Source of the DNA: Heterodontus francisci
Lineage: Eukaryota
Reading direction: 5' to 3'
DNA length: 64,000 nt
Assembly: GCF_036365525.1 (NCBI RefSeq)
Contig: NC_090418.1
Span: 7,480,304 to 7,544,303 of the forward strand
The notes under the pieces: model-generated
Databases searched by the model: none
What the model was told of the DNA's origin: nothing
The model's input: only the letters and a program-made list of their open reading frames with translations
Part shown: piece after piece, positions 1 through 28,934 of the stretch
Layout: every line of letters starts with the position of its first letter
How positions within the stretch are numbered: the first letter of the stretch is position 1
Translations under genes and position numbers: made by a program

Positions 1-1455
1 CATGTCTGTCCAGGGTCCCCGACACAGACACTCCCCTCTGTCCAGTGTCCCCGACACAGACACTTCTGTCTGTCCAGGGTTCCCGACACAGACACTCCTG
101 TCTGTCCAGGGTTCCCGACACAGACACTCCTGTCTGGCCAGGGTCCTCAACACAGACACTCCTGTCTGGCCAGGGTCCCCGACACAGACACTCCTGTCTG
201 GCCAGGGTCACCGACACAGACACTCCTGTCTGGCCAGGGTCACCGATACAGACACTCCTGTCTGGCCAGGGTCCTCGACACAGACACTCCTGTCTGGCCA
301 GGGTCCCCGACACAGACACTCCTGTCTGGCCAGGGTCACCGATACAGACACTCCTATCTGGCCAGGGTCCCCGACACAGACGGTCCTGTCTGTCCAGGGT
401 CCGCTACACAGACACTCCTGTCTGTCCAGTGTCCCCGACACAGACACTCCTGTCTGTCCAGCGTTCCCGACACAGACACTCCTGTCTGTCCAGGGTCCCC
501 GACACCGACACTTCTGTCTGTCCAGGGTCCCCGACACAGACCCTCTTGTCTGTCCAGGGTCCCCGACACAGACACTCCTGTCTGTCCAGGGTCCCTGACA
601 TAGACACTCCAGTCTGTCCAGGGTCCCCGACACAGACCCTCTTGTCTGTCCAGGGTCCCCGACACCGACACTCCTGTCTGTCCAGGGTCCCCGACACCGA
701 CACTCCTGTCTGTCCAGGGTCCCTGACATAGACACTCTTGTCTGTCCAGGGTCCCCGACACAGACACTCCTGTCTGTCCAGGGTCCCTGACATAGACACT
801 CTTGTCTGTCCAGGGTCCCCGACACCGACACTCCTGTCTGTCCAGGGTCCCTGACATAGACACTCTTGTCTGTCCAGGGTCCCCGACACAGACACTCCTG
901 TCTGTCCAGCGTTCCCGACACAGACACTCCTGTCTGTCCAGGGTCCCCGACACCGACACTCCTGTCTGTCCAGGGTCCCCGACACAGACCCTCTTGTCTG
1001 TCCAGGGTCCCCGACATAGACACTCCTGTCTGTCCAGGGTCCCCGACACCTACACTCCTGTCTGTCCAGGGTCCCCGACACCGACACTCCTGTAGTCCAG
1101 GGTCCCTGACATAGACACTCTTGTCTGTCCAGGGTCCCCGACATAGACACTCCAGTCTGTCCAGCGTCCCTGACACTGACACTCCTGTCTGTCCAGGGTC
1201 CCCGACACAGACACTCCTGTCTGTCCAGGGCCCCCGACACAGACACTCCTGTCTGTCCAGGGCCCCCGACACAGACACTCCTGTCTGTCCAGGGTACCCG
1301 ACACAGACACTCCTGTCTGTCCAGGGTACCCGACACAGACACTCCTGTCTGTCCAGGGTCCCCGACACAGACACTCCTGTCTGGCCAGGGCCCCCGACAC
1401 AGACACTCCTGTCTGTCCAGCGTTCCCGACACAGACACTCCTGTCTGTCCAGTGT
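1..1455. repeat. 32-bp minisatellite (GACACAGACACTCCTGTCTGTCCAGGGTCCCC), ~45 copies, truncated by the window start; intronic to the activating-type receptor gene
   Basis: Directly visible tandem 32-mers with point variants; ends ~100 nt before the acceptor at 1552-1553. Confidence 0.97.
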
Positions 1456-1553
1456 ATCTAATGCTGAGTGTTCCCTGTATTTCTCGCTGTGCTCCTGGAT
1501 TTTGTCCACATTCCTGTTTCCACATCATTGCTGTGGATTTCTGTATTTCACAG

Positions 1554-1730
1554 CGCGGGAGCCCCAAACTACAACAGCCCAGTTAACCTCCTCACTGACT
1601 GCAACATCTCCAGAAGGCAACAAACTGGGCCAGTGGGTGATCCTAATAATCAGGTCCATGCTCGCACTGGGAATACTGACGGTTGTTTGGCTGATTGGAA
1701 TTTATCTGATGAGGAGAAAGAAAGTTACGG
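1554..1730 (+). CDS. Stalk + transmembrane exon of an activating-type Ig-superfamily receptor (putative PILR-beta-like); upstream exons lie outside the window
   Basis: Acceptor TTTCACAG (AG 1552-1553), donor G|GTAATC (1731); 177 nt, phase 1-1. Encodes xREPQTTTAQLTSSLTATSPEGNKLGQ-WVILIIRSMLALGILTVVWLIGIYLM-RRKKVT: Thr/Ser stalk, hydrophobic helix with Arg (AGG 1652-1654), basic stop-transfer. Same phases as the TM exon of the downstream gene. Confidence 0.8.
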
Positions 1731-1871
1731 GTAATCTGAGTATTCTGACTTCATTTGTAGTTATTTAGATAAATGTGATGCTTTTTTAAAGAAGATCTGG
1801 TGTCCCTCAATAAAATCAGTGACCATCCCCCAATGTACAATCTCTGTATGACTGGGCTCCCAACATCACTA

Positions 1872-3075
1872 CAGCCTTGGTGCAAACTGAGCTGAAATCC
1901 AGAGGTGAGGTGAGAGTGAGTGCCCTTGAACAGCAAGGCAGCATTTGACCGAGGGTGGCATCAAGGAGCCCTAGCAAAATTGGAGTCAATGGGAATCAGA
2001 GGGAAAAACTCTTTGCTGGTTGGAGTCATACCTAGCACAAAGGAAGATGGTTGTGGTTGTTGGAGGTCAATCGTCTCAGACCCAGGACATCACTGCAGGA
2101 GTTCCTCAGGGTAGTGTCCTCGGCCCAACCATCTTCAGTTGCTTCATCAATGACTTTCCCTCCAACATAAGGTCAGAAGTGGTGATGATGGCTGAGGATT
2201 GCACAATGTTCAGTAACATTCACAACTTTTCAAGATACAGAGGTAGTCCGTGTCCACATACAGCAAGACCTGGACAATATTCAGGCTTGGGCTGATAAGT
2301 GACAAGTAACATTTGTGCCACACAAGTGCCAGGCAATGACCATCTCCAACAAGAGAGAATCTAACCATCTCCCCTTGACATTCAATGGCATTACCATCAC
2401 TTAATCCACCACCATTAACATCCTGGGGGTTACCATTGACCAGAAACTAAACTGGACCAGCTACATAAATACCGTGGCTACAAGAGCAGGTCAGAGGCTG
2501 GGAGTTCTGCGGTAATTAACTCACCCCCTGACTCCCCAAAGCCTGTCCACCATCTACAAGGCACTGGTCAGGAGTGTGATGAAATACTCTTCACTTGCCT
2601 GGATGGGTGCAGCTCCAAAAACAGTCAAGAGTCTTGACACCATCCAGGACAAAGCAGCCCGCTTGATTGGCACCCCATCTACAAACATTCACTCCCTCCA
2701 CCACCGACGCACAGTGGCAGCAGTGTGTACCATCTACAAGATGCACTGCAGCAACTCACCAAATCTTCTTCGACAGCATCTTCCAAACCCGCGACCTCTA
2801 CCACCTGGAAGGAGAAGGGCAGCAGATGCATGGGAACACCATCACCTGCAAGTTCCCCTCAAAGTCACACACCATCCTGACTTGGAACCATATCATTCGT
2901 TCCTTCACTGTTGCTGGGTCAAAATCCTGGAACTCCCTTCTTATCAGCACTCTGGGTGTACGTACAGCACACAGACTGCAGTGGTTCAAGAAGGAGGCTC
3001 ACCACCATCTTCTCAAGGGCAATTAGGGATGGGCAATAAATGCTGGTCTTGCCATTGACGCCCATGTCCCGTGAT
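1872..3075 (+). mobile_element. 5'-truncated non-LTR retrotransposon (CR1/L2-group LINE), frameshifted RT and 3' tail
   Basis: RT motifs in broken frames (KAAFDRGWHQG, GVPQGSVLGPTIFSCFIND, MAEDCTMF as decayed FADD); tail GGGATGGGCAATAAATGCTGG; other copies at 9.3, 18.7 and 24.4 kb. Confidence 0.9.
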
Positions 3076-3189
3076 TGAAAATAATAAGGATTGTGAGTCC
3101 ATCCTGCCGTACTATCGGAATTCCTGGTTGTTGTCTCTTGTTCTTTTGACATGGAAGTTTCCTGCTATAAACCGTGTCATCGATTTCAG

Positions 3190-3248
3190 GTTCCCCGGAT
3201 GGAACGTTGAGGGAAGTAACCAAACAAGAGTCGAGAAGATCACACTGA
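3190..3248 (+). CDS. Terminal coding exon of the activating-type receptor (short cytoplasmic tail)
   Basis: Acceptor TTTCAG (AG 3188-3189); phase-1 join gives GSPDGTLREVTKQESRRSH* (TGA 3246-3248), no tyrosine; followed by clustered AATAAA signals. Confidence 0.6.
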
Positions 3249-3446
3249 CATCACCCAAAGGAATTTGGGACCAAAGGAGGCCGCCGTATTTCCTGGTGTA
3301 CTGGGCCCCACAAAAGCACAGGCTTGCTCACCGTCACACGACAGGGCCACGTCCTCAACAGAACACACTTTTCAGACCCAATTTTAACCTTTTTAAATAG
3401 ACACTGTCAACTGTTTGTTGCTGTGCACATTTTAATCAGACCCTGT

Positions 3447-3512
3447 AATAAACTCTGTTTGCTGTATTATATAGACCTGACTGCCAAATAAATCTTTCTG
3501 CTTTAAAATAAA
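3447..3512 (+). terminator. Cluster of polyadenylation signals for the activating-type gene
   Basis: AATAAA at 3447-3452, 3487-3492 and 3507-3512, 200-260 nt after the stop at 3248. Confidence 0.6.
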
Positions 3513-4959
3513 TTGTTTGCTATTAAATGGACTTTTTGCTATAATATAAACTCTGTCAGTTATAAGTCCCACCCTGCCTCCATATCATTTGCTGACACGG
3601 TGTCAATCAACACTTTGACAAATGGTATTTTAATGAGCTGACTTCACACAGTACAGAGCTGGTCATCAAAAGCTGACTCAGGGCACAACTGGCGTAAATG
3701 AGCCCGTGCAATGGAGGCCATTCAGCCCATCCCACTTGAGCCAGTGCTAGCTCTTCAATCGGACCTATTGACCACAATCGCCTTTTCCTCCATTTGCCCC
3801 TGTCTCCTTCCACACATTTCCTTCTGAAATCCTGACACAATTCCCTTTCGAAATCCATCCCAAATCAGTCCACAATCCTGTTACTTCCCACTCGCTGAGC
3901 TTCAGGTGAGTTTCGTCCGATTCTGCTCCAGCCTGTTCCTCAATCCTAAGGGATGTCCTGGGTTTGGAATCTGGCAGAGATTAGTGGGATACAGAAAGAA
4001 GGTAGAGAAATATCTCTTGTCACGGAACAATCTCATCTGTTGAAATACAGCCTCATTTCCCACATCATGATCCCACCAGCCCAGTCAACCTATCCTGACC
4101 CCAAAAGAATCTTGTTGGCCGTTGGATTCTCCTTCTCCCATCACTAGAATCCACCTTCTCTCTCTCTCTCTCTCTCTCAATCTCCTCAGCAAGCTTCCTA
4201 CAGGGAAGTCTCAATCACACAACTCAATAGCTACACTCCTCAGGAAGTTAATGTAGGAAATGCAGTGAATTTGCTGCAATAGAATTGAGATTTGGGATTC
4301 TAGTGAGTTCTTCCTCAATTTCCAAACGGCTACCTGGTCTCCAGGGTATACATGCCAACGTCTGGACCGGTTGCAATTGAGAAACCTGGCTGTAAAGTCA
4401 ACCTTCATCGAGTGGGTATCCAGCAAAGTCAAAAAGGGTGAAAGGAAGAAGAGGTTTATCAAGGAGTGGTGGGTTGGTGATACAAGGGTTGGGTTTTCAA
4501 AGCCATTGGTTGGACGAGGAAGGGAAGCGAGCATGAGGTGAGGAGCTTGGGACGGAAGAGTTTGGAAAACTCAGAGGGACGATGACCATTATAGTATCAC
4601 CAAAACAGACATAGAGGAGATGTAGAGAGAGTGAAGGTGACTGGAGGTGAGAGAGGGGTCCATCAAAACACAACGAGCATCCCTTGGCATGAGTGCAGAG
4701 ATACTGGACTAGTGGGGTCATGCGCCCAGGGCTGCGTCCAGGGGCGCAGTTGGCAAATTGCCTCCAAAATGGACCCGACACTAACCCCCACCTGGCTGAA
4801 GTGAAATTGTCTCAATTTGAAGAGCTTTCCGGAAGCTCTGCAAACAGGTACAATTGATGGGAACTTGCCAATCCCAATATTTCAATCTGGCAGCATGGGC
4901 AGTTCTGTGGGTGAGGAGGGCAATAATTTCAAACCCCGCGTTCAGAGCAGAAACCCAAT

Positions 4960-5390
4960 TTACACCTGACGTCACTTACGGTTAATATTCCTCGACCTTA
5001 GGCACTGATTCCACCGATTTCACCTCTTTGCCGCTGCTTACACTGGCCCCAAACAGGACAAACTCGAAGACAATGTAGTGACGGGTATCACTCCTTTACA
5101 CCTAAGATTCCCTGATCTTTTAACACTAACTTTCCTCGGCCACGCTCGGATTTTAGCTGTTGTCTGGGAAGAAATCAGACGGAAGCTCAGAGCCCAGATC
5201 TGAGAGAGGAGGAGGGACTTGATATGAAGAGATAATTTCCCAATTGGAGACGGAAGTGGAACCAGAGAAATAGGAAGGAGAAAAACAGAACTAACTGGTC
5301 AGAAATAGTGAGTGTGTCACAAAGGCCGTCTCAGTATCCTGTGGTCTGTGAAGCCTCCTTCAGACTCACAGAGTGAGATGAGTAGCTGTC
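4960..5390 (+). promoter_or_regulatory. Putative promoter of the PILRA-like gene (no obvious TATA box)
   Basis: CRE TGACGTCA 4967-4974, GATA AGATAA 5230-5235, ETS CGGAAGTG 5251-5258 and RUNX TGTGGT 5340-5345, all upstream of ATG 5391. Motif matches only. Confidence 0.4.
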
Positions 5391-5433
5391 ATGGACTCTG
5401 TTCTCCATCTGATCATTCTGCATCTCTCCGTCG
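5391..5433 (+). CDS. PILRA-like inhibitory receptor, exon 1 (signal peptide)
   Basis: gtcATGG Kozak context; MDSVLHLIILHLSV; consensus donor G|GTGAGT, phase 1, joins the IgV exon in frame. Confidence 0.85.
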
Positions 5434-5619
5434 GTGAGTAAACCAAATTTTATTTTCCTTTCTCGAGTTTCGTGCCTCCATTTTAACATCCCTGCTCTAT
5501 CCATGCAGTCCCTCCCAGGGGCCTCCCACAGCTGCTCCTGGCTTTCCATTTAACACATGGATTAATCAATTACCACCAATGTGATGCCCACCCAAGTTGA
5601 AGAGTATAGGAGGGGGAAC

Positions 5620-6010
5620 AACAAGAACAGCAGGAAAACCTCCCAAGGTGCTCGCCAGAGGCATACGCAGAAAAGGGGCACAGTGCCAAAGCAGATATTA
5701 GGAGGAGTAACCCAAAGATAGGTCAATGAGGTGGGTCTTGACAGAGAGAGGCAGAGACGTTTTAGGGATGGAATTCCAGAGTTTAGGAATGAGATGGCTG
5801 AGGGCACAGACCAAAATGTTGGGGCAAAGGGAGTGAAGTCAGCACAAGAGACCGAAATTGGAAGAAAGCAGATATGTCGGAGGGTTGTCGGGCTGGAGGA
5901 GGTTACAGAGATAGGGAAGGGAGGAATCGAGACCATGAAAGGATTTAAAGACGAGGATGAGAATTTTACACTGGGGGCTTTGGTGGTCTGGGAGCCAGTG
6001 TAGGTCAGCA
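5620..6010 (-). mobile_element. Decayed L2-like LINE 3' fragment
   Basis: Reverse-complement similarity to the L2-like tails at 8280, 32460 and 35430 (GGAATTCCAGAG...GGAGGAGGTTACAGAGATAGGG). Confidence 0.6.
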
Positions 6011-6469
6011 AGCACAGTGAGAGGGGGGAGACTGGGTGAACAGGAATTGGAGTGGATAGGGTACAGTACAGCAGAGGTTTGACGGATGAGTTGAAGGTTA
6101 AGGAAGGTGGAGGATGGACAATGGGCCAGGACTGATCAGGAAGTCGTGGTCAAGATAATCGAACTGTGGTTTTTAAAACTGAAAAACAGAAATGGAGAGA
6201 GTAGGGAGGGCTCCACATTACAGTCATGGAGAAGTAACGGGCGGTTTAACACTGCGGGCACCTGGTGTCGTGTCCCTGATGGTGATGGGTGAGGGGTGGG
6301 AGGGGATTCAGTTACACAGAGAGATTAGACCAGGAGCCTGTCCAAGGCCAGCTCGCAGTCACTCCCCCAGACCCAAACATCGGGTACAAAGCAACATTTG
6401 GAGAGCACAAGAGGCAACCATAGAGACCGCCTCGAAACCAGGAAACAGTGGGAAAGAACAGAAAGAGAG

Positions 6470-7510
6470 GAATTTACAGGCTGGAATCTAATGCAGCAAT
6501 ACAATGCAGTTTATATATAGAATAACAGATACCCGGGAGTGAGTTACAGACTGGAATCTAATCGAAGGGTTCGGGGGGTTCATATATAGAATAACAGATA
6601 CCCGGGAGTGAGTTACAGACTGGAATCTAATCGAAGGGTTCAGGGGGTTTATATATAGAATAACAGATACCCGGGAGTGAGTTACAGACTGGAATCTAAT
6701 CGAGGGGTTCAGGGGGTTTATATATAGAATAACAGATACCCAGGAGTGAGTTACAGGCTGGAATCTAATCGAGGGGTTTGGGGGTTTATATATAGAATAA
6801 CAGATACCCGGGAGTGAGTTACAGGCTGGAATCTAATCGAGGGGTTCGGGGGGTTTATATATACAATAACAGATAACCAGGAGTGAGTTACAGACTGGAA
6901 TCTAATCAAGGGGTTCGGGGGGTTTATATATAAAATAACAGATACCCGGGAGTGAGTTACAGACTGGAATCTAATCAAGGGGTTCGGGGGGTTTATATAT
7001 AGAATAACAGATACCCGGGAGTGAGTTACAGACTGGAATCTAATCGAGGGGTTTGGGGGTTTATATATAAAATAACAGATACCCGGGAGTGAGTTACAGA
7101 CTGGAATCTAATCGAGGGGTTCGGGGGGTTTATATATAGAATAACAGATACCCGGGAGTGAGTTACAGACTGGAATCTAATCGAGGGTTCGGTGGGTTTA
7201 TATATAGAATAACAGATACCCGGGAGTGAGTTACAGACTGGAATCTAATCAAGGGGTTCGGGGGGTTTATATATAAAATAACAGATACCCGGGAGTGAGT
7301 TACAGACTGGAATCTAATCGAGGTGTTTGGGGGTTTATATATAAAATAACAGATACCCGGGAGTGAGTTACAGACTGGAATCTAATCGAGGGTTCGGTGG
7401 GTTTATATATCAAATAACAGATACCCGGGAGTGAGTTACAGACTGGAATCTAATCGAGGGGTTTGGGTGTTTATATATAGAATAACAGATACCCAGGAGT
7501 GAGTTACAGG
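6470..7510. repeat. 68-69 bp minisatellite (CTGGAATCTAATCGAGGGGTTCGGGGGGTTTATATATAGAATAACAGATACCCGGGAGTGAGTTACAGA), ~15 copies, intron 1
   Basis: Unit starts at 6551 and 6620 give a period of 69; copies are near-identical. Confidence 0.97.
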
Positions 7511-7627
7511 TGGCTATTTCAGATACAGGATTCCTCTATTACTGGGAGTATTCTGGAGGTAGTTGTCTATTGGTTGAGAGACTATTTATGATTCCTAAAT
7601 AACCATTTGCTGTTTCCTCTCTCTCAG

Positions 7628-7996
7628 TGATGATAAATGGAAATGATTTCCGTGTGTTCCAGCCCCCCAGCCTGGAGGGGGTGGTCGGGCAGTCGATCAT
7701 TATTCGCTGCTCATTCACTTACCCAGAAAACTACACACCCCAAAAGATTGACATTTCTTGGAGAAGACTTAATTTTCACGGAGAATTTATATTCAACACC
7801 TCAAAGGGGTACATTCACCCTGATTACCGAGGCCGGCTTGAATTCCTGGGTTCTCCATATAAGGAGAAGACCGGCACCATCAGGATAAATCAGCTGAAGT
7901 TTAGTGACTCAAACCAGTATTACTGTCGTGTGGTGACATCAGGACACAGACCCGAGATGTGGCAAAACATCCCTGGGACATTCCTCTCAGTCCGAG
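7628..7996 (+). CDS. PILRA-like inhibitory receptor, exon 2 (single V-set Ig domain)
   Basis: Acceptor CTCTCTCAG (AG 7626-7627), donor G|GTAAAC; 369 nt, phase 1-1. V-set motifs (IRC, ISWRR, D-x-x-x-Y-Y-C) and PILR-like segments SWRRLNFHG, IHPDYRGRL, YYCRV, WQNIPGTFLSV, compared with recalled human PILR SWRRGHFHG, IHKDYVNRL, YFCRV, WQSIEGTKLSI. Confidence 0.93.
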
Positions 7997-8132
7997 GTAA
8001 ACTTGCCTTTGGATTCCTGTGTTTTTCTCTGTATAATTTCATCTTAAGAACATATTTCTTTCTTAAATTGTGTTTCGGCGACACCTCAATTTTCAAACTC
8101 TCTTCGTTTTCAAATCCTTCCCGTTGCCTCGC

Positions 8133-8285
8133 ACCCCTTCCCCCCCACCCCACCTCACCCCCCCTCACCCCCCCCACCCCTCACCCACCCCCACCCCCCC
8201 CTCACCCCCCCCACCCCTCACCCACCCCCACCCCCCCTCACCCCCACCCCCCTTCACCCCCACCCACCCCCCCGTCCCGCAACCC
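8133..8285. repeat. C-rich low-complexity tract (CCCCA/CCCCTCA)
   Basis: Directly visible; produces the spurious poly-Pro/His of ORF 7627-8403. Confidence 0.9.
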
Positions 8286-8600
8286 CACAATCTCTGTAAC
8301 TTCCTCCGAGATCTCTGCACTCCTCAATTCTGACTCTTGCCCATCCCCCGATTTTAATCGCTCCGCCATTGGTGGCCGTGCCTTCAGCTGCCTGGGACCC
8401 TAAGCTCGGGAATCCCCTCCCTAAACCCTCTCCGCCTCTCTCTGCATCGCTCACCTCCTTGAGACACGACTCAGGATCGATCACTTTCCCGTCCTAATAT
8501 CTCCTTATGTGGCTCGGTGTCAATTGTTGCCTGATAACGTGTCTGTGAAGCGCGCTAGGCCGTTTTGTTGCTTTAGAGGCACTAAAGAAATGGAATTGTT
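8285..8600 (+). mobile_element. L2-like LINE 3' end
   Basis: CTCCGAGATCTCTGCACTCCTC...GCCGTGCCTTCAGCTGCCTGGG...CCTTATGTGGCTCGGTGTC; same family at 32460, 35430 and 37740. Confidence 0.7.
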
Positions 8601-9267
8601 GCTGCAACATGGCTGAGCCTTAATATTCTGGCCTCTGATTTGCCGACACTCGTCCAAGTAAAGGACGTCAGTTCCGTTTCCAGCCAATCAAGTGCCAAGT
8701 TTGAAAAGACGTGGGGCCAAGATCCAAAATGGCCACTGGAAATAAAGAAAGGGAAATGAAATAGAAGATGTGGAATCAAAGGTTATTTTGAAAATAAAGG
8801 AGAAAAGAAATTGAGTCGGTGCAGAATAAGATAATGGAGAACCTTGTGGCTCAGTGTTTTTCACTCTGTTCTAAACCTGTGGGATCTGGGTTGGAAGTTG
8901 AATTTGTTAAATGGGGAACAATGTCAACATTTTCAATTGACCCTCCCCCTGCCCCCCAGCCTCAACTGATTTTTGTGGGAGAGACTTCCAGATTCCCACT
9001 CCCCTTTGTTGAAGAAGTGCTTCCTGACATCACCCCTGAACTTCCTGGCTCTCATCTTCAGATTACACCCCCTTGTTCTGGATTCTCCCCCACTAGGGAC
9101 AATAGATTCTCTCTATCTACCCCGTCAAACCTTTATATTATCTTAAACACCTCAATTAAATAATACCTTAGCTTCTATATTCAAGGAAATACAAGCTCAG
9201 TCTGTGCAAACTATCTGTGGCTTTGTTACTGGTCTAGTAATTCAGAAAGTGTGACTCCAATGATGGT

Positions 9268-9990
9268 GAATCTAATCACCTCCCCTTGACATTCAATGGC
9301 ATTACCATCACTGAATCCCCCACTGTCTAAATCCTCGGGGTTACCATTGACCAGAAACTGAACAGGACCAGCCACATAAATACCGTGGCTACAAGAGCAG
9401 GTCAGAGGCTAGGAATCCTGCGGCGAGTAACTCACCTCCTGACTCCCCAAAGCCTGTTCACCATCTACAAGGCACAAGTCAGGAGTGTGATGGAATACTC
9501 TCCACTTGCCTGGATGGGTGCAGCTCCAACAACACTCAAGAAGCACGACACCATCCAGGACAAAGCAGCCCACTTGATTGGCACCCCATCTACAAACATT
9601 CACTCCCTCCACCACCGACGCACAGCGGCAGCAGTGTGTACCATCTGTGAGATGCACTGCAGCAACGCACCAGGGCTCCTTAGACAGCACCTTCCAAACC
9701 CGCGACCTCTACCAACTAGACGGACAAGAGCAGCAGATGCAAGGGAACACCACCACCTGCAAGTTCCCCTCCAAGTCACACACCATCCTGACTTGGAACT
9801 GTATCGCCGTTCCTTCACTGTCGCTGGGTCAAAATCCTGGGACTCCCTTCCTAACAGCACTGTGGGTGTACCTACCCCACATTGACTGCAGCGGTTCAAG
9901 AAGGCAGCTCACCACCACCTTCTCAAGGGCAATTGGGGATGGGCAATAAATGCTGGCCTGGCCAGCGATGCCCACAGCCCCGTGAATGAA
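9268..9990 (+). mobile_element. LINE 3' fragment (same family as 1872-3075)
   Basis: ORF2 C-terminal peptide YKAQVRSVMEYSPLAWMGAA; tail with AATAAA at 9945-9950. Confidence 0.9.
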
Positions 9991-10044
9991 TAGTTGAACA
10001 GGACGATAATTACACTGAGGTGATCTTTTATTTCTCTGTTTTAG

Positions 10045-10209
10045 CATGGAAACCTACTGCCAAGCCTACTACCGAACCCACTACCAAATCGGCAGCTAGT
10101 GCCACCTGGATGCCAGTGTTGATTGGATGCAGTGTTCTGGCCTTTCTGCTCATTTCCCTGGGGCTGGTAGCTGCAGTTTGCAGCTGGAAGAAGCAACGGC
10201 GTCAGCACG
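10045..10209 (+). CDS. PILRA-like inhibitory receptor, exon 3 (stalk + transmembrane)
   Basis: Acceptor TGTTTTAG, donor G|GTGAGT; 165 nt, phase 1-1; AWKPTAKPTTEPTTKSAASAT-WMPVLIGCSVLAFLLISLGLVAAVCSW-KKQRRQH; TM carries no charged residue. Confidence 0.92.
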
Positions 10210-10566
10210 GTGAGTGGCTCCTTCCCCTCTGCCCCGTCTACTGCCCGCAGCCTCTCTTCGCCCCAGACCCTCCTGTTGGCCCTTTGCTGTGCTTGCACCC
10301 GCAGGCCCCGGCTTCATTCCAGCCAGCCTAGAAGGTGGGAGTCAGCTGGCCGTTTAACTGTGGGGGGGGGGCATCGCGGTCATGCCTGATCCCGTCACCA
10401 TCATGTGATAGCGTAGCGATTAGAGAGACATCCCTGGGTCACTGCCCCCTTCCTCCATTAGCGGGGCTAAGATCAGGAGTAGATTTATTGTCCAGAGTCT
10501 AGGGTGAAGATTTGGATCTCAAATCATAGCATCTTTTATCATAGAAGGAGGCCATTCGGCTACTGT

Positions 10567-10925
10567 TTAGATTAGATTAGATTAGAGATACAGCACTGAA
10601 ACAGGCCCTTCGGCCCACCGAGTCTGTGCCGACCATCAACCACCCATTTATACTAATCCTACACTAATCCCATATTCCTACCAAACATCCCCACCTGTCC
10701 CTATATTTCCCTACCACCTACCTATATTAGTGACAATTTATAATGGCCAATTTACCTATCAACCTGCAAGTCTTTTGGCTTGTGGGAGGAAACTGGAGCA
10801 CCCGGAGAAAACCCACGCAGACACAGGGAGAACTTGCAAACTCCACACAGGCAGTACCTAGAATCGAACCCGGGTCCCTGGAGCTGTGAGGCTGCAGTGC
10901 TAACCACTGCGCCACTGTGCCGCCC
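10567..10925 (-). mobile_element. tRNA-derived V-SINE (HE1-like elasmobranch SINE)
   Basis: Minus strand: A box TGGCGCAGTGG, B box GGTTCGATTC, V-domain GCGTGGGTTTTCTCCGGGTGCTCC, CR1-like tail GGGCCGAAGGGCCTGTTTCAGTGCTGTATCTC and terminal (TCTAA)n. Confidence 0.9.
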
Positions 10926-11104
10926 ATCTAGTAGTTCTAGTATCAGCTCTTTGAAAGGGCTATCTAATTAATCCCACTCCCTCCCCCCTGCTCTTTCCTC
11001 ATCGCCCTGCAAACTCTTCCTTTCCCAAGTATTTATCCAATTCCCTTTTCAAAGTTATTACCGAACCTGCTTCCAACGCCCTTTCAGGCAGTGCATTCCA
11101 AATC

Positions 11105-11320
11105 CTGGGATCTTTTCCAGCCACCTGAGAGGGCAGACGGAGCCTCCAGTTAGAATCGCCTCTGAAAAATGGCACCGCCAACAGTGCGGTATTCCCTCAG
11201 TATCTGCACCAGGAGCGTCAGCCTGGACTTTGTGCTCAAGTCTCTGGAGTGGGTTTCAAACCCAGGACCTCGTGACTCAGAGGTGGGGCGGGGTGGGCTA
11301 CCCAGCGAGCCAAGGCTGAG
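11105..11320 (-). mobile_element. Deu-domain SINE fragment (SacSINE1/AmnSINE-like)
   Basis: GGGATCTTTT..CCACCTGAGAGGGCAGACGG..CTCAAGTCTCTGGAGTGGG is the reverse complement of the Deu core as recalled; recurs at 20170, 22510 and 28520. Confidence 0.65.
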
Positions 11321-12514
11321 ACAAGGTGTGCGAGGCCTCTGGGCTGCAACTGCAGCCTGTGGCCTAGGCAGGTTTCGTCGCTCGCTCCTGCAGTCGGGAC
11401 GTTCTTAATCATTTCGATATCAGCTGTGAGGCGGCTTCCGCTGTTAACTCGGTGGTGGATGTTAAAATAAGAGCAGGGTTCACCCGAGGCAAGAAACGAC
11501 AGAGGAGCTGACCCCCATCGACAAACCGGTTGCCATGGACACGAGGAGGCCTTCCGCCATTACCATCACGAAACCTCAGTGGCTGTCACGGGCAACAAAG
11601 GTTTCCTGGTCACCATTAGACATTTTAATTCCAGGTTTTATTAATTAAGTTCACATTTCAGCAGCTGCCGTGATGGGATTCGAACCCACATCCCCAGGGC
11701 ATTAGCAGGGGCCTCTGGCTACTAGTCCAGTGACTCTACCGCCGTGCCAGCGCCTCTCCCAACGCGAGGAAACTTACGGGAATACGACCAACCAGAGTTG
11801 GTGCCCTTCACCTCACCCCACCCCGAGAGGACAACTGCAAGATGTCATTCGCACTGGGCAGCGAATGGGATGGAAGACAGGATTGTAGATGGGACGGTGG
11901 GATTGGTGGGAGACGCACGGAACTCAGGTCTGTCACAGGAAGAGTACGCGTGCAACAAAGTGTTGGAAACATTCCAGTGAAGGCAGAGATTGATGATAAG
12001 ATCATAACGTAGATCAGGAAAGCGTGCCCACTTTTCAGTATGTTGCAATATGGGCCATAATGACTCCGTGACCCTCCTCAATTTTAACCCTCCCTCCCTA
12101 CCGAGGCTGATGAGACCTCCCTGACTACCAGTCCCCACCAGCTGAGATGGGCCAACCCGGGGCGTACCTGTCCCAGCAGTGTCGAGAATCATGAAATCAC
12201 CCAGCGCAGATGGAGGCCATTCGGCACTTCGCGGCCCTGTGCTGTCGCTTGGAACGTGAGCAGCTCCTCACTCTCTGTTGGGTAAACCTCTCCACCCTGC
12301 ACTCGGCCTTAGGAAAACCACCGACTATTTTGCAACCAAGGGAGTGTTCAGAGGCTGATACTGGCGTTGGGGTTTTGGTTAAAGGGTTAAATTAAGAGGA
12401 CAACGTTGGGGCTGTATTTCCTTGAGTTTAGACAGTTGAGTTGTTGCAAATGATAGAGGGTAGACCAGGCTCAAAGGGCCGAATGGCCTACTGCTACCCC
12501 CATTTCTCATGTTC

Positions 12515-12838
12515 TCAGGCAGAGAAACTATTTCGTCTGGTGGGGCTAGTCCAGAATAAGGGGGCAGAATGTTAAAATTAGGGCCAGGCTGTTCAGGGGT
12601 GATGTCAGGAAGCACTTCTTCACACAAAGGAGAGTGGGAATCGGGAACTGCCTCCCCGCAAAAAGCTGTTGAGGCTGGAGTGTGGTCGATTAAGCTTCCA
12701 AGACTGCGACTGATAGATTTTTTTGTTGGGTAAGGATATCGTGGATTCAGAAGTAAATGGGTTTAAGTCAAATCAGATGTGATCTAATTGAATGGTGCAG
12801 CAGAATCAAGCGGCCGAATGGCCTCCTCCTGTTCCTAT
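12515..12838 (+). mobile_element. CR1 LINE 3' fragment
   Basis: GATGTCAGGAAGCACTTCTTCACACAAAGG...GGCCGAATGGCCTCCTCCTGTTCCTATG tail. Confidence 0.75.
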
Positions 12839-13129
12839 GGCCAGTCACCCTGACCTGCATTTGACGTGCAGTCATCAGTCTAAAACTGAGCAAAATCTCA
12901 TGTTCTGCAACAGCTGCTGTCTTGAGTCATGATGTTAATTTGGAAAACACTGCAGAAAGTGCCGGAAATGTGCAACATCTGAAACAAGAGGGGAGGGGGG
13001 GGGGGGGGGGGGTGAAGTTCAACTTTGGTGAACAATGCAAAATTTCCCTGGGGCGTTATAATGGGTGGCCGATTCCCTTAGGGTCCCTTTTGTGCTGACT
13101 GCCATAGTTGAATTGCAACCTCTCTTTTC

Positions 13130-13785
13130 CAGAGAGAGAAAGAGACATAGAGAATGAAACAGAGAGGCAGACAATGAGTCAGACAGAGAGACTCAGAGAC
13201 AGATAGGCAGACAGACAAGAGGGAGCAAGAGAGAAAGGCACAGAGAGATATTGAGTGAGAGATAGCAACAGAGAGACAGTCAAGAGAGACAGAAAGAGTG
13301 AGACATGGAGATTGAGAGGGAGACAGAGAAACAGACAATGAGTCAGACAAAGAGAGACTCAGAGACAGAGAGGCAGATAGATAAAGACAGACATAGGGAG
13401 CAAGACAGAAAGAGTCGGATAGAGACAGAGAAAAGCAAGACAGAGAGACAGTCAAGAGAGACAGAGAGAGTGAGACAGAGAGACAGACAAGAGGGACAGA
13501 GACAGTGAGGGCGAGACAGAGAGACAGAAGAGAGAGAGACAAACAAGAGAGAGACAGAGAGTGAGATAATGAGTCAGGCAGAGAGACTCAGAGACACAGA
13601 GGCAGACAGATAGAGACAGACAATAGGGAGCAAGACAGATAGAGACAGAGAAAGCAAGACAGAGAGACAGAGACAAAGACAGGGAGAAGCAAAGACAGCG
13701 AAACACAGAAAGAGACAGATGGTGACAGAAACAGAGACAGGCAAGGGAGAGACAGATACTGACAGAGGCAGAGACTGAGAGTAAG
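13130..13785. repeat. AG-rich low-complexity tract (GAGA/GACA), with an internal ~140-nt duplication
   Basis: Purine-rich GAGACAGA runs; ACAATGAGTCAGACA...GAGACTCAGAGACAG recurs at ~13170 and ~13335. Confidence 0.9.
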
Positions 13786-14357
13786 AGTTTGAAAAGATGC
13801 TGCCGTGAGCAAGAAATCAAACAAAAAGCAGAAATTAAACAGACGATTTGGGCCTGAGCAGGATCCAGGTGGGTATGTTGTTAAAATGGTCTGGAGTCTC
13901 ACCCGCTGATGACCCACTCCGCTTCTGCTGTCTACTCATTCAACCTGCTGTCATGAGAGGCTGCAAGAACTGTCTGAAACCAGCCGGGTCCTTTAAACGT
14001 GCAAAGCATGGCCAGCTGCTATTTTAACTGGTCGCCCGGCACCTGCCAGCAAGGAAACCATTCATTAATCGGTCATAGAATCATGGAATGATACAGCACA
14101 GAAGGAGGCCATTCGGCCCATCGTGTCTGTGCTAGCTCTGTTGAAAGTGCTATCCAATTAATCCCACTTCACCATCCACCCTCCCCACCCCTGACCCCGC
14201 TCTTTCCTTTCCATGTTTACTAAGTCTCCTTTTGTAAGTTATTATTGAATCTGCTTCCAACGCCCTTTCAGACAGCACATTCCAGAAGGATCTGAAACAA
14301 TCAGAAATATAAGAAGAGGAACTCAGTGAGGCAAAGGGTGCAGGCGGTCAGCTGCAG

Positions 14358-14900
14358 TAGAGTCATAGAGTCGTACAGCATAGAAACAGGCCCTTCGGCC
14401 CACCACGTCCAAGCGGACCATAATACCTATCTATACTAATCCCACCTGCCTGCATTAATTCCATATCCCTCTATGCCTTGCTCATTCAAGTACCTGTCCA
14501 GATGCCTCTTAAATGTTGCTACTGTTCCTGCCTCCACCACCTCCTCAGGCAGCTCACTCCAGATACCCACTATTCTTTGTGTGAAAAAATTACCCCTTTG
14601 ATCCCCTTTAAACCTCCTCCCTCTCACCTTAAATCTATGTCCTCTAGTTTTAGTCACCCCTACCATGGGAAACAGACTCTGGCTATCTACCCTATCTATG
14701 CCTCTCATAATTTTATATACCTCTGATCATGTCCCCTCTCAGCCTCCTTCGCTCCAGGGAAAACAGACCCAGCCTATCCAATCTCTCTTTATAACACAAG
14801 CCCTCCAAACCAGGCAACATCCTTGTGAGTCTTTTCTGCACCCTCTCTAGCTTAATCACATCTTTCCTGTAGTGCGGGCGACCAGAACTGCACACAGTAC
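14358..14900 (-). mobile_element. CR1 (HER1-like) LINE 3' fragment
   Basis: Minus frames give LERVQKRLTRMLPGL..LFSLERRRLRGDMI and TRGHRFKVRG..FFTQRIVGIWSELP, typical CR1 ORF2 C-terminal motifs; tail shared with the V-SINE. Confidence 0.9.
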
Positions 14901-15211
14901 TTGTCAGCTGTGGCTCAGTGGGTTAGTATTCATAACACTGACTCAGAAGATCATGGAGTTCAAGTCCCAAATTGCTGTGTAGCCAATTTCAGGGCTGCTG
15001 CAGAAAAACTACTCACCAGTATAGCCAGGCTGGCAATGGGAAGGACTGCCCTTGTCAAATAGCAGGGGGTTTTCGTCCCCCAGTTATACCCTCTCAACTC
15101 TGGAAGGACGACAGACTGTAATACTTTCACAGCCTAACATCAGACTATGCCAGCAGTCTGCACTGTCGTCAGTATCTCTATACTTACCCTGTCTATTCCT
15201 TGTCTTCACAG

Positions 15212-15239
15212 AGAACATCAGACAAGTGAGCATGCGGGA
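15212..15239 (+). CDS. PILRA-like inhibitory receptor, exon 4 (cytoplasmic micro-exon)
   Basis: Acceptor TGTCTTCACAG, donor GA|GTAAGT; 28 nt, phase 1 to 2; ENIRQVSMR. The phases fit both neighbouring exons. Confidence 0.8.
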
Positions 15240-15259
15240 GTAAGTACCAATTAATAATA

Positions 15260-15960
15260 TACCATATGTTAACACTCCTGTATATATAATATAATAACAC
15301 ACTGTGTGTTACTGGGAGTAATACTGTAAATATTATATAATAACACACTGTGTATTACCGAATATAACACTGTATATATAACACACTGTTACTGAATATA
15401 ACATTGTAACTATTATATCACACTGTGTGTTACGCTGAGTATATAACACACTGTGTATTATTATATATAACACCGTATATGTAATATGTTTATGTTTAGA
15501 GATACAGCACTGAAACAGGCCCTTCGGCCCACTGAGTCTGTGCCGACCCATCAACCACCCATATATACTAATCCTACACTTTTCCCATATTCCTACCACA
15601 TCCCCACCTGTCCCTATATTTCCCTACCACCTACCTATACTAGGGGCAATTTATAATGGCCAATTTACCTACCAACCTGCAAGTCTTTTGGCAGGAAACC
15701 GGAGCACCCGGAGGAAACCCACGCAGACACAGGGAGAAGTTGCAAACTCCACACAGGCAGTACCCGGAATTGAACCCGGGTCGCTGGAGCTGTGAGGCCG
15801 CGGTGCTAACCACTGCGCCACTGTGCCGCCACTGTGCTTTAATGGGTGTAATACTGTGTATATTATGTAATAACACACTGTGCGTTACTGGGTGTAACAC
15901 TGTATATTATATAATATGCACTGTGCGTTACTGGGTGTAACACTCCTGTGTATATAACTG
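15260..15960. repeat. Degenerate AT-rich tandem repeat (TATAATAACACACTGTGTGTTACTG-like), interrupted by a SINE
   Basis: Same motif on both sides of the SINE (15260-15490 and 15830-15960). Confidence 0.75.
15495..15829 (-). mobile_element. V-SINE (HE1-like)
   Basis: Near-identical to the copy at 10567-10925, with A and B boxes. Confidence 0.9.
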
Positions 15961-16027
15961 AACTTACTTTGTGTCACAGTGCTTTTGTACGTAATCTCAT
16001 CCTCTCTGTGCTCTCTCTTTTCCACAG

Positions 16028-16080
16028 TATCTCAGCTCTGAGTAAGAATCGGTCCATTGACCTGGATCAACAGCAGAAAG
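16028..16080 (+). CDS. PILRA-like inhibitory receptor, exon 5
   Basis: Long pyrimidine tract + CACAG, donor AAG|GTACAG; 53 nt, phase 2 to 1; DISALSKNRSIDLDQQQK. Confidence 0.8.
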
Positions 16081-16892
16081 GTACAGTGTGTCCATTCGGA
16101 ACATCGGAACACTTGCTCGCACTGCCAGTAACTGAGCCGCGAGTTAAAGACAGAAATATCCGAGTCAGCCATGCCCCACACTCCTCCTTTCTGATCAGCC
16201 AAACCTCGAGTAACCCTTCACAGTGCTGCCACCCCAATCACCTCACTATTGCCAGTCTGTACAGCAGTCGAAGTACAAATGATGCCAATACTCTGGGGCA
16301 CGGGAGAGGAGAAATGTGCCCAGGCTTTGCACAGTTACCCCTGCAAAAAGGCCTGCATGCATGCAGCCTTATATCCAGTCCTGGCCCTAATGTTTTATCT
16401 TGTTAACCCACCCGTTGGCACTCACTGGCTTTGTTTTTCTAATTTGCTCTTGGGTTGCGGGCATCGCTGGCATTTATGCCAATCCCGGGATGCCCTGAAA
16501 AGGTGCTTGGGGGGGGGGGCGGGGGGGGGTGGTGGAGGCCTCCTCCTTGAACTGCTACAGTCCCCGTGGCGAAGGTGCTGCTGGCAGTGGGTATTAGGGT
16601 GGGAATTCTAGGAGAATGACCCAGCCATGAGGAAGGAGTGGCAATTTAGGATGAGTGTGTGGGTTGGGACGGAAATTGGAGGTGACCACGTTTCAATGAC
16701 ATTGCTGATTTCTGTCCTTCTCAATGGTAGGTAGCAAGGCCTCATAACACATCCATGCTAACTGTAGGCCAGTGAGGACCTGCAGTACAGGAAGGGTGAG
16801 AACGGGCAGAAAATGGAGGAAGAAAATGCCTTGGTGCAAGACGATGGACAATATAACAGGTCTCTAATGTGCTGTCTGCTTTTATATTTCAG

Positions 16893-16936
16893 ATCCTTCC
16901 AACCAATCCCAACCTAATAATGCGCCTGCTGGGAAG
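16893..16936 (+). CDS. PILRA-like inhibitory receptor, exon 6
   Basis: Acceptor TATTTCAG, donor AAG|GTAAGA; 44 nt, phase 1 to 0; DPSNQSQPNNAPAGK. Confidence 0.8.
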
Positions 16937-17211
16937 GTAAGACAATTCCTGTGCTGGAGCGGGAGTGGGTATAGAGACTAACCAATCAAAAGCTTTGTTT
17001 TCATTGGCTTTGGGGATCTCATGCAGAACTGCCCCTCAGAAAATTAAACGGCTGAGGTACTTGTCCATCATTAGTTAGAATGTAGAACTAGTCTGATGGG
17101 CAAAATGGACTTGACGCACTCTAGATGTTGGTCTGTTCTTATCGCACAGCAATTGGACCAGAGAATGTTCAGAGCATAAACATTCTGAACCCAGACCCAT
17201 GAAAATAAGAA

Positions 17212-17890
17212 CATAAGAACGTGAGAAATAGGAGAAGGTGTGGGCCATTGGCCCCTCAAGCTTGCTCCGCTAATTCAATATGGCTGATCTTCCACCTCAA
17301 CTTCATCTTCCCACCCTGTTCCCATATCCCTCAATTCCCTAAAGTGTCCAAAAATCTATCGATCTCTGTATTCAATGTACTCAACGACTGAACATCCACT
17401 GCTCTCTAGGATCGAGAATTCCAAAGATTGACGACCCACTGAGCGAAAAAATGTCTCCGCATCTCAGCCCTAAATGGCCGACCCCTTATTCTGAGACTGT
17501 GACCCCCTAGCTCTAAAATCCCCAGCCAGAGGTAACATCCGCCCTGCATCTAGGAGGTGACTTCTCCTGGGAACATAGGACTTGGGAGCAGGAGTAGGCC
17601 ATTCGGCCCTTCAGGGTTGCTGTGCCACTCAATAAGATCACCTCTCATTCTTCTAAACTCCAATAAGTATAGGCCCAACCTGTTCGACCTTTCGTCATGA
17701 GATAAGCCCTTCATACCCGGAATGAATCAAGTGAACCTTCTCTGAACTGCTTCTAACGCAATTATATCCTTTTTCAAATAAGGAGACCAAAACTGTGCAC
17801 AGTACTCCAGATGTGGTCTAAACCCAAGGGAATATAGGCCCAGTCTACTCAATCTCTCCTCATCGAGCAATCACTTCATCCCAGGAATCA
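17212..17890 (-). mobile_element. Adjacent decayed CR1 LINE 3' fragments
   Basis: ACATAAGAAC..AATAGGAG..GGCCATT tails at 17212 and ~17570 plus CR1 body (ACTGTGCACAGTACTCCAGATGTGGTC). Confidence 0.7.
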
Positions 17891-18099
17891 ATCGATGTAA
17901 ATATTTGTCACACTCCCTCAAAAGCGAGAAAGTGGTCACAATATCAACATCCAAAACCTTCACCCACAGCTATCTAGTCCTAGAATATAAAGAAATGCCA
18001 ATATTCTGTCACCCTATTGTTGCGGGGTGCTGAAAGGATACTCCCACAATAGCAATGCAATCCCATCTAATTTTCCATTAAAACTCAAGTTGAGGCCAC

Positions 18100-18381
18100 A
18101 GTCTGAACATAAGGGGTCGGCCATTTAGGACAGAGATGAGGAGACATTTCTTCACTCAGAGAGTTGTGAATCTTTGGAATTCTCTACCCCAGAGAACTGT
18201 GGATGTTCAGTCCTTGGGCATATTCAAGAGTGAGATCGATAGGCTTTTGGGCTCTGAGGGATTTAGAGATACGGGGATAGGGCGGGAAGATGGAGTTGAG
18301 GTGAAGATCAGCCATGGTCTTGCTGAACGGTGACACAAGCTTGAAGGGCCGAACGGCCGACTCCTGTTCCTAGTTCTTATG
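18100..18381 (+). mobile_element. CR1 LINE 3' fragment
   Basis: MRRHFFTQRVVNLWNSLP and tail GGGCCGAACGGCCGACTCCTGTTCCTAGTTCTTATG. Confidence 0.85.
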
Positions 18382-18651
18382 TTAAGTTCACAGAATGAGA
18401 GTTTTGGGGTAATTTTTGTTTCGTAGGGCTCTTTGTCTCAAGGCTCCAGCAATCTTTCAGTTTCAAGGTCGCACAATCTACCAAGACAGTGTTTTGGGGT
18501 CGAAGACTACAAACAGGCTCCTTTAATGGAGAAGAGGAACTTCAACTCCTCCGTGACACAAATAGCACAGTTTCACAAAACATTTGGTAAAATTAAGCAA
18601 CTTTCCTCTCAACAGGATGATTGACAAATGTTGTGGTCAGTCTCTTTTTTT

Positions 18652-20112: not shown

Positions 20113-20169
20113 GTCATAATGTGCTATCAGGGGAAGCTTTCCCTCTGAACATAGGGGTGGAACGTCTAG

Positions 20170-20520: not shown

Positions 20521-20787
20521 CCGCTGGGACACACCTTTCCCGGATGCTCAATGGGTGAGGCGCAGTTTTGAGAATCTTACTTCCTACCAGACACTGACAA
20601 AGATTCAATCGCACCAGCGATGGACAAGGACAATCCCTGATGTATGTGTGAAAACAGGGACGATGACGCTGAGCTAATTATACCCTACAGTCCCGGGATT
20701 CCCTCAACCGCCCCCACTTCCCAGGTGTCTTCTCTAGAACAGAGCACCCGAAACCAGGCAATCGAGGGAGCCCATTTCTTTTTTTTC

Positions 20788-21713: not shown

Positions 21714-21845
21714 GAAAATGATTTAGAAGGGATTGTCTATGCGACACTACATGTCAAAGAAAGTTCAGAAACAACAATCAATGCCTTGTCATCAGAGGTG
21801 CATATTGTATATGCAGCTGTGAAGTTCCATGCTGAGACTAACTAG
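21714..21845 (+). CDS. PILRA-like inhibitory receptor, exon 7 (two ITIMs and stop)
   Basis: Acceptor TTTCTCTTGCAG, phase 0; ENDLEGIVYATLHVKESSETTINALSSEVHIVYAAVKFHAETN* (TAG 21843-21845). ITIMs at 21732-21749 and 21804-21821; GIVYATL parallels the recalled human PILRA GIVYASL. Spliced CDS is 834 nt = 277 aa. Confidence 0.92.
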   Translation, partial: ENDLEGIVYATLHVKESSETTINALSSEVHIVYAAVKFHAETN

Positions 21846-28820: not shown

Positions 28821-28934
28821 ATGACCAGGGGTCTTTGTCTCCTGGGTTGCTCCCAGCAGGAGATTAACGTTTAACACCTGGAGAGTCCTGCCAAGTGACC
28901 CCTGACCCCACCTCGTATTGACCTTGGAGGGAGT

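What the first reader, a model, noticed from the sequence alone, without database searches (positions are those of the whole stretch)
1634..1712. Activating partner has an N-proximal TM arginine (FcR-gamma/CD3-zeta type) rather than a DAP12-type lysine
Seen: WVILIIRSMLALGILTVVWLIGIYLM, with one Arg in the outer third of the helix and no Lys. Knowledge: an Arg near the outer leaflet couples NKp30, NKp46, LILRA, OSCAR and GPVI to FcR-gamma/CD3-zeta, whereas mammalian PILR-beta uses a mid-helix Lys with DAP12. Inference: if this gene is the PILR partner, adaptor usage differs between sharks and mammals.
Basis: partly seen in the sequence, partly recalled or inferred. Interest (0 to 1): 0.7.

Follow-up and report, generated by a model that had tools for sequence, protein, structure and literature searches.

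The report
Shark PILR with independent arginine switch
This shark gene makes a short-tailed twin of a neighbouring 'off-switch' immune receptor (PILR); its membrane anchor carries an outer arginine, shared with most other sharks and a stingray, that likely docks the T-cell zeta chain rather than the DAP12 adaptor used by the mammalian version, and the anchor likely evolved separately from the mammalian one.

Summary
Observation confirmed. 1634-1712 lies in a spliced transmembrane exon (1554-1730, Arg 1652-1654) of a short-tailed, tyrosine-free receptor. Its Ig exon, upstream of the window, matches the adjacent two-ITIM gene at 366/369 nt. Best domain match, tree and nearby genes point to PILR. 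The column is Arg in 12 of 14 elasmobranch rows and Lys in 2 (bamboo/epaulette sharks). Caecilian, turtle and primate forms have a mid-helix Lys, so the split is elasmobranch versus tetrapod. By profile comparison the tetrapod Lys anchor resembles the inhibitory anchor while the shark Arg anchor resembles none: likely two separate origins. The genome holds CD3-zeta and DAP12; four searches found no FcR-gamma. CD3-zeta is therefore the likeliest partner (about 0.6), untested; DAP12 is the main rival. RefSeq fuses this locus into 'pIgR-like' chimeras. Adaptor switching has a precedent (macaque KIR). This scan noted the same anchor earlier in another shark and a separate skate version. New variant of a known kind; interest 0.5.

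The parts
1554..1730 (+). Stalk + transmembrane exon of the activating-type PILR (Thr/Ser-rich stalk, 26-residue apolar run, basic stop-transfer cluster)
   Evidence: spliced to 3190 in 4 of 4 RNA-like runs. Its signal exon (L004:4621-4663) and V-set Ig exon (L004:8525-8893) lie upstream of the window
1652..1654 (+). Transmembrane Arg codon (AGG), position 5-7 of the helix
   Evidence: column is R in 12 of 14 and K in 2 of 14 elasmobranch rows
3190..3248 (+). Last coding exon: short tail without tyrosine, stop at 3246-3248
   Evidence: joint 1729-3189; present once in 264 kb
3249..3530 (+). 3' UTR with AATAAA at 3447, 3487, 3507
   Evidence: RNA-like contigs end at 3419-3503
4371..8002 (+). 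Homogenised tract (upstream region, signal exon, intron 1, Ig exon) shared with the activating gene; identity ends 6 nt into the intron after the Ig exon
   Evidence: 30 mismatches against 2100 matches before the minisatellite; 3 mismatches in the 369-nt Ig exon
5391..5433 (+). Signal-peptide exon of the inhibitory partner
7628..7996 (+). V-set Ig exon of the inhibitory partner (PILR-type)
10045..10209 (+). Uncharged transmembrane exon of the inhibitory partner
15211..16936 (+). Three small cytoplasmic exons (15211-15239, 16028-16080, 16893-16936)
   Evidence: GT..AG joints in 3 of 3 RNA-like runs and 0 of 1 DNA run
21714..21845 (+). Last exon of the inhibitory partner with two ITIM-type motifs (IVYATL, IVYAAV)

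Best explanation
This is the transmembrane exon of a spliced, short-tailed PILR-type receptor that sits beside a near-identical two-ITIM partner; it likely acts as the activating half of the pair, and its outer-helix arginine likely pairs with the aspartate pair of a CD3-zeta dimer, the only zeta/FcR-gamma-family chain found in this genome. Shown: exon structure, splicing, paired architecture, conservation of the basic residue, presence of CD3-zeta and DAP12 genes. Inferred: the Ig domain binds sialylated O-glycans through the Arg that aligns with the PILR F-strand Arg; clustering would phosphorylate the three ITAMs of zeta and recruit Syk/ZAP-70, opposing SHP recruitment by the twin. Inferred: the Arg anchor is an old elasmobranch exon of separate origin from the tetrapod Lys/DAP12 anchor, while repeated gene conversion keeps the two ectodomains alike.
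For: Splicing. Pairing: Ig exons 366/369 nt identical, tract ends just after the Ig exon; activating and inhibitory Ig domains group by species in 6 species (SH-aLRT 87-99, quick tree). PILR identity: best single-domain PDB match PILR-alpha, 67 bits over residues 4-121, against 27 bits for the best pIgR domain; 41% to orangutan PILRB. Conservation: R 12/14, K 2/14; 8 other species including a stingray. Geometry: 4-7 apolar residues before the Arg, like zeta's Asp (5) and unlike DAP12's Asp (10) or tetrapod Lys (helix position 10-13). Rule: Fc-gamma-class partners carry an N-terminal Arg, type I DAP12 partners a central Lys (PMC1440944); precedent for lineage switch in macaque KIR (PMC8102735). 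Adaptors: one zeta-family exon only, CD3-zeta (three ITAMs in P0206). Separate origin: hhalign probability 96.6 for tetrapod Lys versus tetrapod inhibitory anchor, 91.0 for shark versus tetrapod inhibitory anchors, but 1.6, 2.5 and 17.3 for the shark Arg anchor against the other three groups.
Against: No binding or signalling data. Lys replaces Arg in 2 of 14 rows, although Arg-to-Lys cut Fc-alpha-RI assembly with Fc-gamma. Position 7 (longest windows) touches the 7-12 range reported for DAP12 partners, and DAP12 is present. Absence of FcR-gamma is soft: the same genome search missed NDUFS2, which must exist. Tissue of expression is not on record and zeta expression in the receptor's cells is unknown. 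Profiles for the origin test are small (8-14 rows, 45 columns). A frog multi-Ig relative has an outer Arg (P0094) and orangutan PILRB has an Arg at the helix edge as well as its Lys, so the split is not perfectly clean. Root of shark + tetrapod PILR has only SH-aLRT 85.
Confidence: 0.6

Rival explanations
1. Activating PILR that still uses DAP12, with an Arg or Lys placed higher in the helix than in mammals.
For: A DAP12 gene exists: transmembrane exon at G000:C39:42335584-42335712, best PDB hit TYROBP E 7e-6, and a terminal exon with the second ITAM half 27.8 kb downstream. Lys in 2 of 14 rows. Arg at position 7 in the longest windows. Siglec-14 signals through DAP12 (PMC13358205, PMC6890642, passages); that its basic residue is an outer Arg is recalled, not seen in any passage read (search gave 0 papers).
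Against: KIR Lys-to-Arg cut DAP12 assembly to 15%, and Fc-alpha-RI with an outer Arg did not bind DAP12. Shark DAP12's Asp has 10 apolar residues before it, the receptor's Arg 4-7.
Confidence: 0.2
2. Activating PILR that uses a shark FcR-gamma chain missed by my searches.
For: Most mammalian outer-Arg receptors use FcR-gamma. Genome searches are lower bounds.
Against: Family model (1 match of 59 candidates), zeta exon query (1 of 1), lizard FcR-gamma query (best hit the zeta exon, 2 weak non-coding hits, 12 candidates) and an exact pattern from invariant columns of zeta plus FcR-gamma (1 hit) all return only CD3-zeta. A protein search gave 13 hits of 15 candidates: 11 zeta chains (10 named from cartilaginous fishes) and 2 lizard FcR-gamma, no shark FcR-gamma. 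PMC4016189 found none in sharks.
Confidence: 0.1
3. The Arg is an interfacial, snorkelling residue; the protein is an adaptor-free decoy or ligand competitor of the inhibitory twin.
For: 19 apolar residues follow the Arg, enough to span the core alone; 1 of 10 top windows excludes it. Arg/Lys interchange fits a charge-only role.
Against: Four to seven apolar residues precede it and the block around it is among the most conserved columns over sharks and a stingray; paired layout is typical of activating receptors (PMC13358205).
Confidence: 0.08
4. The exon is an internal piece of one long multi-pass protein, as RefSeq models it (641-700 aa, 'pIgR-like').
For: Five RefSeq isoforms join the repeats and the inhibitory gene.
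Against: RNA-like contigs join this exon to its own tail exon and 3' UTR in 4 of 4 runs; relatives in other sharks are stand-alone 192-227 aa proteins; the models would place Ig domains on both membrane faces.
Confidence: 0.02

Closest known systems
Mammalian PILR-beta / PILR-alpha pair
   Same: Single V-set domain of the PILR type (41% to orangutan PILRB), F-strand Arg kept, Thr/Ser stalk, short-tailed charged member beside a two-ITIM member, homogenised ectodomains, NAT16-like and MOGAT-like genes within about 135 kb.
   Different: Outer Arg instead of mid-helix Lys; anchor exon not detectably related to the tetrapod one; B-strand Cys kept where orangutan PILRB has Phe; adaptor likely zeta, not DAP12.
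Macaque activating KIR and KIR2DL4 (PMC8102735)
   Same: Activating member of a paired family that carries an outer Arg from a different transmembrane exon than its Lys/DAP12 counterparts in another lineage.
   Different: KIR uses FcR-gamma (shown by co-precipitation); here FcR-gamma was not found, the divergence is far older, and the donor of the exon is unknown.
Outer-Arg receptors Fc-alpha-RI, GPVI, NKp46, NKp30, LILRA, OSCAR
   Same: Arg in the N-terminal part of a type I helix, short tail (Fc-alpha-RI geometry from PMC1440944; the others recalled).
   Different: Unrelated ectodomains; no sequence match to their anchors was obtained (PDB search gave only a chance hit).
Siglec-5 / Siglec-14 pair
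   Same: Sialic-acid-binding V-set pair kept alike by gene conversion.
   Different: Multi-Ig Siglec family; signals through DAP12.

Membership tests
PILR family | V-set domain closest to PILR rather than Siglec, CD300 or pIgR | tested here: met
   67 bits to PILR-alpha versus 30 Siglec-15, 28 sialoadhesin, 27 best pIgR domain; groups with tetrapod PILR, SH-aLRT 85, quick tree
PILR family | F-strand Arg for sialic acid binding | tested here: met
   Arg after the second Cys aligns with orangutan PILRB; kept in 28 of 31 rows surveyed, lost in 3 activating forms. Its role is from PMC13358205
PILR family | Adjacent inhibitory (ITIM) and short-tailed charged members with near-identical ectodomains | tested here: met
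PILR family | Synteny with human 7q22.1 | tested here: inconclusive
   DAGAT exons about 101 kb and a Hisat_C exon about 133 kb downstream of the inhibitory gene; human order lists PILRB, PILRA, then NAT16, MOGAT3 some 25 genes on (PMC6834745, PMC4263743, passages). Equating them with MOGAT3 and NAT16 is inferred; immediate human neighbours were not found in the 185 frames scanned
PILR family | Binding of sialylated O-glycopeptides | not testable with these tools
   needs a binding assay
PILR-beta in the strict sense | Mid-helix Lys on an anchor derived from the inhibitory exon, coupling to DAP12 | tested here: not met
   Outer Arg; hhalign probability 1.6 against tetrapod Lys anchors. It works like PILR-beta but is not its one-to-one orthologue
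FcR-gamma/zeta-coupled outer-Arg receptors | [quoted passage not shown] | tested here: met
   position 5-7 in 9 of 10 top windows; reference positions 3-4
FcR-gamma/zeta-coupled outer-Arg receptors | Short tail without signalling motif | tested here: met
   no Tyr in the tail
FcR-gamma/zeta-coupled outer-Arg receptors | Cognate adaptor encoded in the genome | tested here: inconclusive
   CD3-zeta yes; FcR-gamma not found
FcR-gamma/zeta-coupled outer-Arg receptors | Arg-dependent assembly with the adaptor | not testable with these tools
   needs co-expression and co-precipitation

The most novel reading that the evidence does not exclude
The activating PILR was invented at least twice: elasmobranchs grafted an unrelated outer-Arg anchor exon onto the PILR ectodomain before sharks and rays split, tetrapods put a Lys into the inhibitory anchor, and skates did it again. 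Because sharks lack FcR-gamma, the shark form signals through the three-ITAM T-cell zeta chain, which would make zeta the ancestral innate-receptor adaptor from before FcR-gamma arose.
Probability: 0.4. Interest if true: 0.7.

Novelty: new variant of a known kind. Interest (0 to 1): 0.5.

Why it matters
It extends the PILR on/off pair to cartilaginous fishes, with the inhibitory member as the stable core and the activating member rebuilt per lineage, which is a direct case for the idea that activating receptors arise repeatedly from inhibitory ones. It also gives a simple two-adaptor test (shark CD3-zeta versus shark DAP12, both located here) of whether zeta served innate receptors before FcR-gamma existed, and natural Arg/Lys variants to test how strict the residue rule is. 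Practically, the RefSeq model of this locus is likely a wrong fusion, and alpha/beta labels of shark PILRs are often reversed.

Tried and rejected
Complex prediction of the anchor with a CD3-zeta dimer: no answer (score 0.02, mark 0.34; alignments not used); it carries no weight either way. PDB search with the anchor exon: one chance hit. Genome search with the anchor exon for a donor gene: three copies at this locus and one weak hit with a stop, E 2.4, rejected. Atlas look-up of a great-white anchor region: all scores under 0.9, uninformative. DAP10 family search: single hit E 0.21 with a stop, rejected as spurious; DAP10 status stays open. ITAM family search: one hit on C3, not followed. NDUFS2 search as an anchor for the FcR-gamma locus: 0 matches, so that synteny test failed. 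DAP12 pattern: 12 hits, fewer than the reversed control (31); 2 of 12 are exon-like (one DAP12, one CD3-like), 10 dropped as non-coding. pIgR label rejected: whole-protein E-values sum weak domains. Careful tree did not finish; only the quick tree is used. Three papers were not held and not seen (shark NCR3 paper, two PILR ligand/structure papers). No supplements were read. The 8,651-bp duplicate was not tested with reads.

Full report
Observation. window:1634-1712 (+) gives the 26 residues quoted, one Arg and no Lys. They lie in an exon at 1554-1730 with AG and GT ends; the Arg codon is 1652-1654. Across the two best hydropathy windows at five lengths the Arg is at position 5-7 in 9 of 10 and just outside in 1; 6 apolar residues precede it and 19 follow.

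The gene. The window is G000:C48:7480304-7544303. RefSeq proteins of Heterodontus francisci match it and sit on a contig of the same length, so this is very likely the horn shark. Upstream of the window lie a signal exon and a V-set Ig exon; downstream a short tail exon without tyrosine (3190-3248) and poly(A) signals. Contigs of 4 of 4 RNA-like runs join 1729 to 3189; a 976-nt contig spans signal exon, a 367-nt insert of Ig-exon size, this exon and the 3' end. All runs are one sample, tissue not on record, and RNA status is a guess of the tool. That contig matches the inhibitory gene's signal exon without a difference, including the last base where the activating copies differ, so it may be a mosaic of near-identical paralogues.

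The partner. The next gene (5391-21845) has an uncharged anchor and two ITIM-type motifs; its tail exons are joined in 3 of 3 RNA-like runs and not in the 1 DNA run. The two Ig exons share 366 of 369 nt; the shared tract starts about 1 kb before the start codon and ends 6 nt into the next intron. In a quick tree of 103 domains, activating and inhibitory forms group by species in six species (SH-aLRT 87-99), the pattern of repeated gene conversion.

Family. Best single-domain PDB match is PILR-alpha (67 bits, residues 4-121); pIgR ranks higher only by summing weak domains of at most 27 bits. Identity to orangutan PILRB is 41%, with the F-strand Arg aligned. The chondrichthyan clade (97) joins tetrapod PILRs (85) apart from a Siglec-15-like domain of this genome (label recalled). 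DAGAT and Hisat_C exons lie about 101 and 133 kb downstream; NAT16 and MOGAT3 share the human interval with PILRB and PILRA (passages of PMC6834745 and PMC4263743). The gene identities are inferred.

Conservation. Alignment A2 holds this exon and 13 database proteins from 8 species that carry the same anchor type; I left out two isoforms of one great-white gene, all inhibitory forms, and two skate proteins with a different anchor. The column is Arg in 12 of 14 rows (basking, great white, two catsharks, whale shark, stingray Hemitrygon) and Lys in 2 (Hemiscyllium, Chiloscyllium punctatum). One basking-shark row has a second Arg and one bamboo-shark row a Glu in mid-helix. For Callorhinchus, Heptranchias, Stegostoma, Pristis, Narcine and Leucoraja only other forms appeared; the searches were not exhaustive. 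Of 121 proteins with a best domain of 45 bits or more, 42 had no anchor. Twelve tetrapod-type rows picked for a charged anchor have Lys at window position 10-13: two caecilians, three turtles and orangutan are named, six are unnamed and only presumed mammalian. Against a clean split: frog multi-Ig relatives show an outer Arg (Xenopus laevis), a mid Lys and an outer Lys, and orangutan PILRB has an Arg at the helix edge too. No ray-finned fish, coelacanth or lungfish PILR was among the rows I named, so the ancestral state is not polarised.

Origin of the anchor. Profile comparison of 45-column segments gave probability 96.6 for tetrapod Lys versus tetrapod inhibitory anchors, 91.0 for shark versus tetrapod inhibitory anchors, 2.1 for tetrapod Lys versus shark inhibitory, and 1.6, 2.5 and 17.3 for the shark Arg anchor against tetrapod Lys, tetrapod inhibitory and shark inhibitory anchors. 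I infer that tetrapods gained a Lys in the inhibitory exon while elasmobranchs use a different exon. Profiles are small and short, so this is likely, not proven. No donor was found; a likeness to the NKp30 anchor is recalled only.

Adaptors. Passages of PMC1440944 (abstract and found passages) state that Fc-gamma partners have an N-terminal Arg, type I DAP12 partners a Lys at 7-12, and that swapping Arg and Lys cuts assembly in both. Mouse PILR-beta was stabilised and signalled with DAP12, not zeta or FcR-gamma (PMC2211832, passages). In this genome four searches return one zeta-family exon, CD3-zeta on C10, a three-ITAM chain. PMC4016189 and PMC5742104 (passages) report no FcR-gamma in cartilaginous fishes. 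The absence is soft, because a control search missed NDUFS2. DAP12 is present: an exon on C39 whose best PDB hit is TYROBP (E 7e-6) and a terminal exon with the second ITAM half 27.8 kb on; the first ITAM half was not located. The Arg has 4-7 apolar residues on its outer side, zeta's Asp 5 and DAP12's Asp 10.

Mechanism. Shown: a spliced short-tailed receptor, an ITIM twin, a conserved outer basic residue, both adaptors in the genome. Inferred: sialylated O-glycan binding, Arg-Asp-Asp assembly with zeta (0.6), ITAM signalling opposed by the twin. Rivals: DAP12 (0.2), an undetected FcR-gamma (0.1), adaptor-free decoy (0.08), RefSeq's fused protein (0.02).

Novelty. Databases already call the shark relatives PILR alpha or beta, often against their architecture, and model this locus as 641-700 aa 'pIgR-like' fusions. 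A search for PILR and shark gave 17 papers, none on this topic by title or start of abstract (listing only); searches showed none either; the library lacks most subscription journals. An Arg/FcR-gamma versus Lys/DAP12 switch between lineages is known for primate KIR (PMC8102735, passages). This scan's unreviewed notes describe the same anchor in another shark, a separate Arg gain in a skate, and no FcR-gamma in this genome; they are not independent support. New here: the R/K survey, the tetrapod-wide Lys, the separate-origin test, and the located DAP12. Verdict: real, new variant of a known kind, interest 0.5.

Noticed in passing
G000:C48:7464500-7482100 (upstream of and into window 1-1780): An 8,651-bp unit (anchor exon, signal exon, Ig exon, two minisatellites) is repeated with no mismatch over 8,500 bases, giving three Arg-anchor exons; only the in-window copy has the tail exon. 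Very recent duplication or assembly error.
   Followed up: partly
L029 (G000:C48:7463285-7463563) and about 6 kb upstream: A diverged PILR Ig exon with a stop and a frameshift, plus two diverged signal exons: a pseudogene at the head of the cluster.
   Followed up: partly
RefSeq XP_067879819-24 (P0005, P0009-P0012): Annotation fuses activating repeats and the inhibitory gene into multi-pass 'polymeric immunoglobulin receptor-like' proteins.
   Followed up: yes
P0059 (Amblyraja), P0055 (Rhinoraja): Skate forms carry a basic residue inside an inhibitory-type anchor: an 11-residue insertion with Arg in one, an outer Lys in the other; likely further separate gains of activation.
   Followed up: partly
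P0013, P0017, P0023: Some activating forms of lamniform sharks and a catshark have lost the sialic-acid Arg of the Ig domain.
   Followed up: no
P0002, P0004 and relatives: Shark PILR domains keep the B-strand Cys that orangutan PILRB lacks, so they likely retain the canonical Ig disulfide.
   Followed up: no
L007:4403-4885 (+), L010:5814-6203 (-), L012:718-1176 (-), L008:4226-6944 (+): Three more V-set exons and a SPRY/SOCS-box gene within 90 kb upstream; the L012 domain looks VJ-type (TMIGD2/NKp30-like, recalled); a relative of the L007 domain is fused to PILR in a catshark model (P0023), hinting at local synteny.
   Followed up: partly
window 26900-36500 (-): Cys-rich gene that looks cornifelin/PLAC8-like (label recalled; single exons gave no Pfam hit).
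   Followed up: no
window 38790-64000 and L042-L045: A 32-bp satellite array, 25 kb in the window and continuing about 35 kb beyond.
   Followed up: no
G000:C39:42307780-42335712 (-); G000:C22:82566558 (-); G000:C4:15161920 (+): Horn-shark DAP12 with huge minisatellite introns; a CD3-type transmembrane exon; a Siglec-15-like V exon (last two labels recalled).
   Followed up: partly
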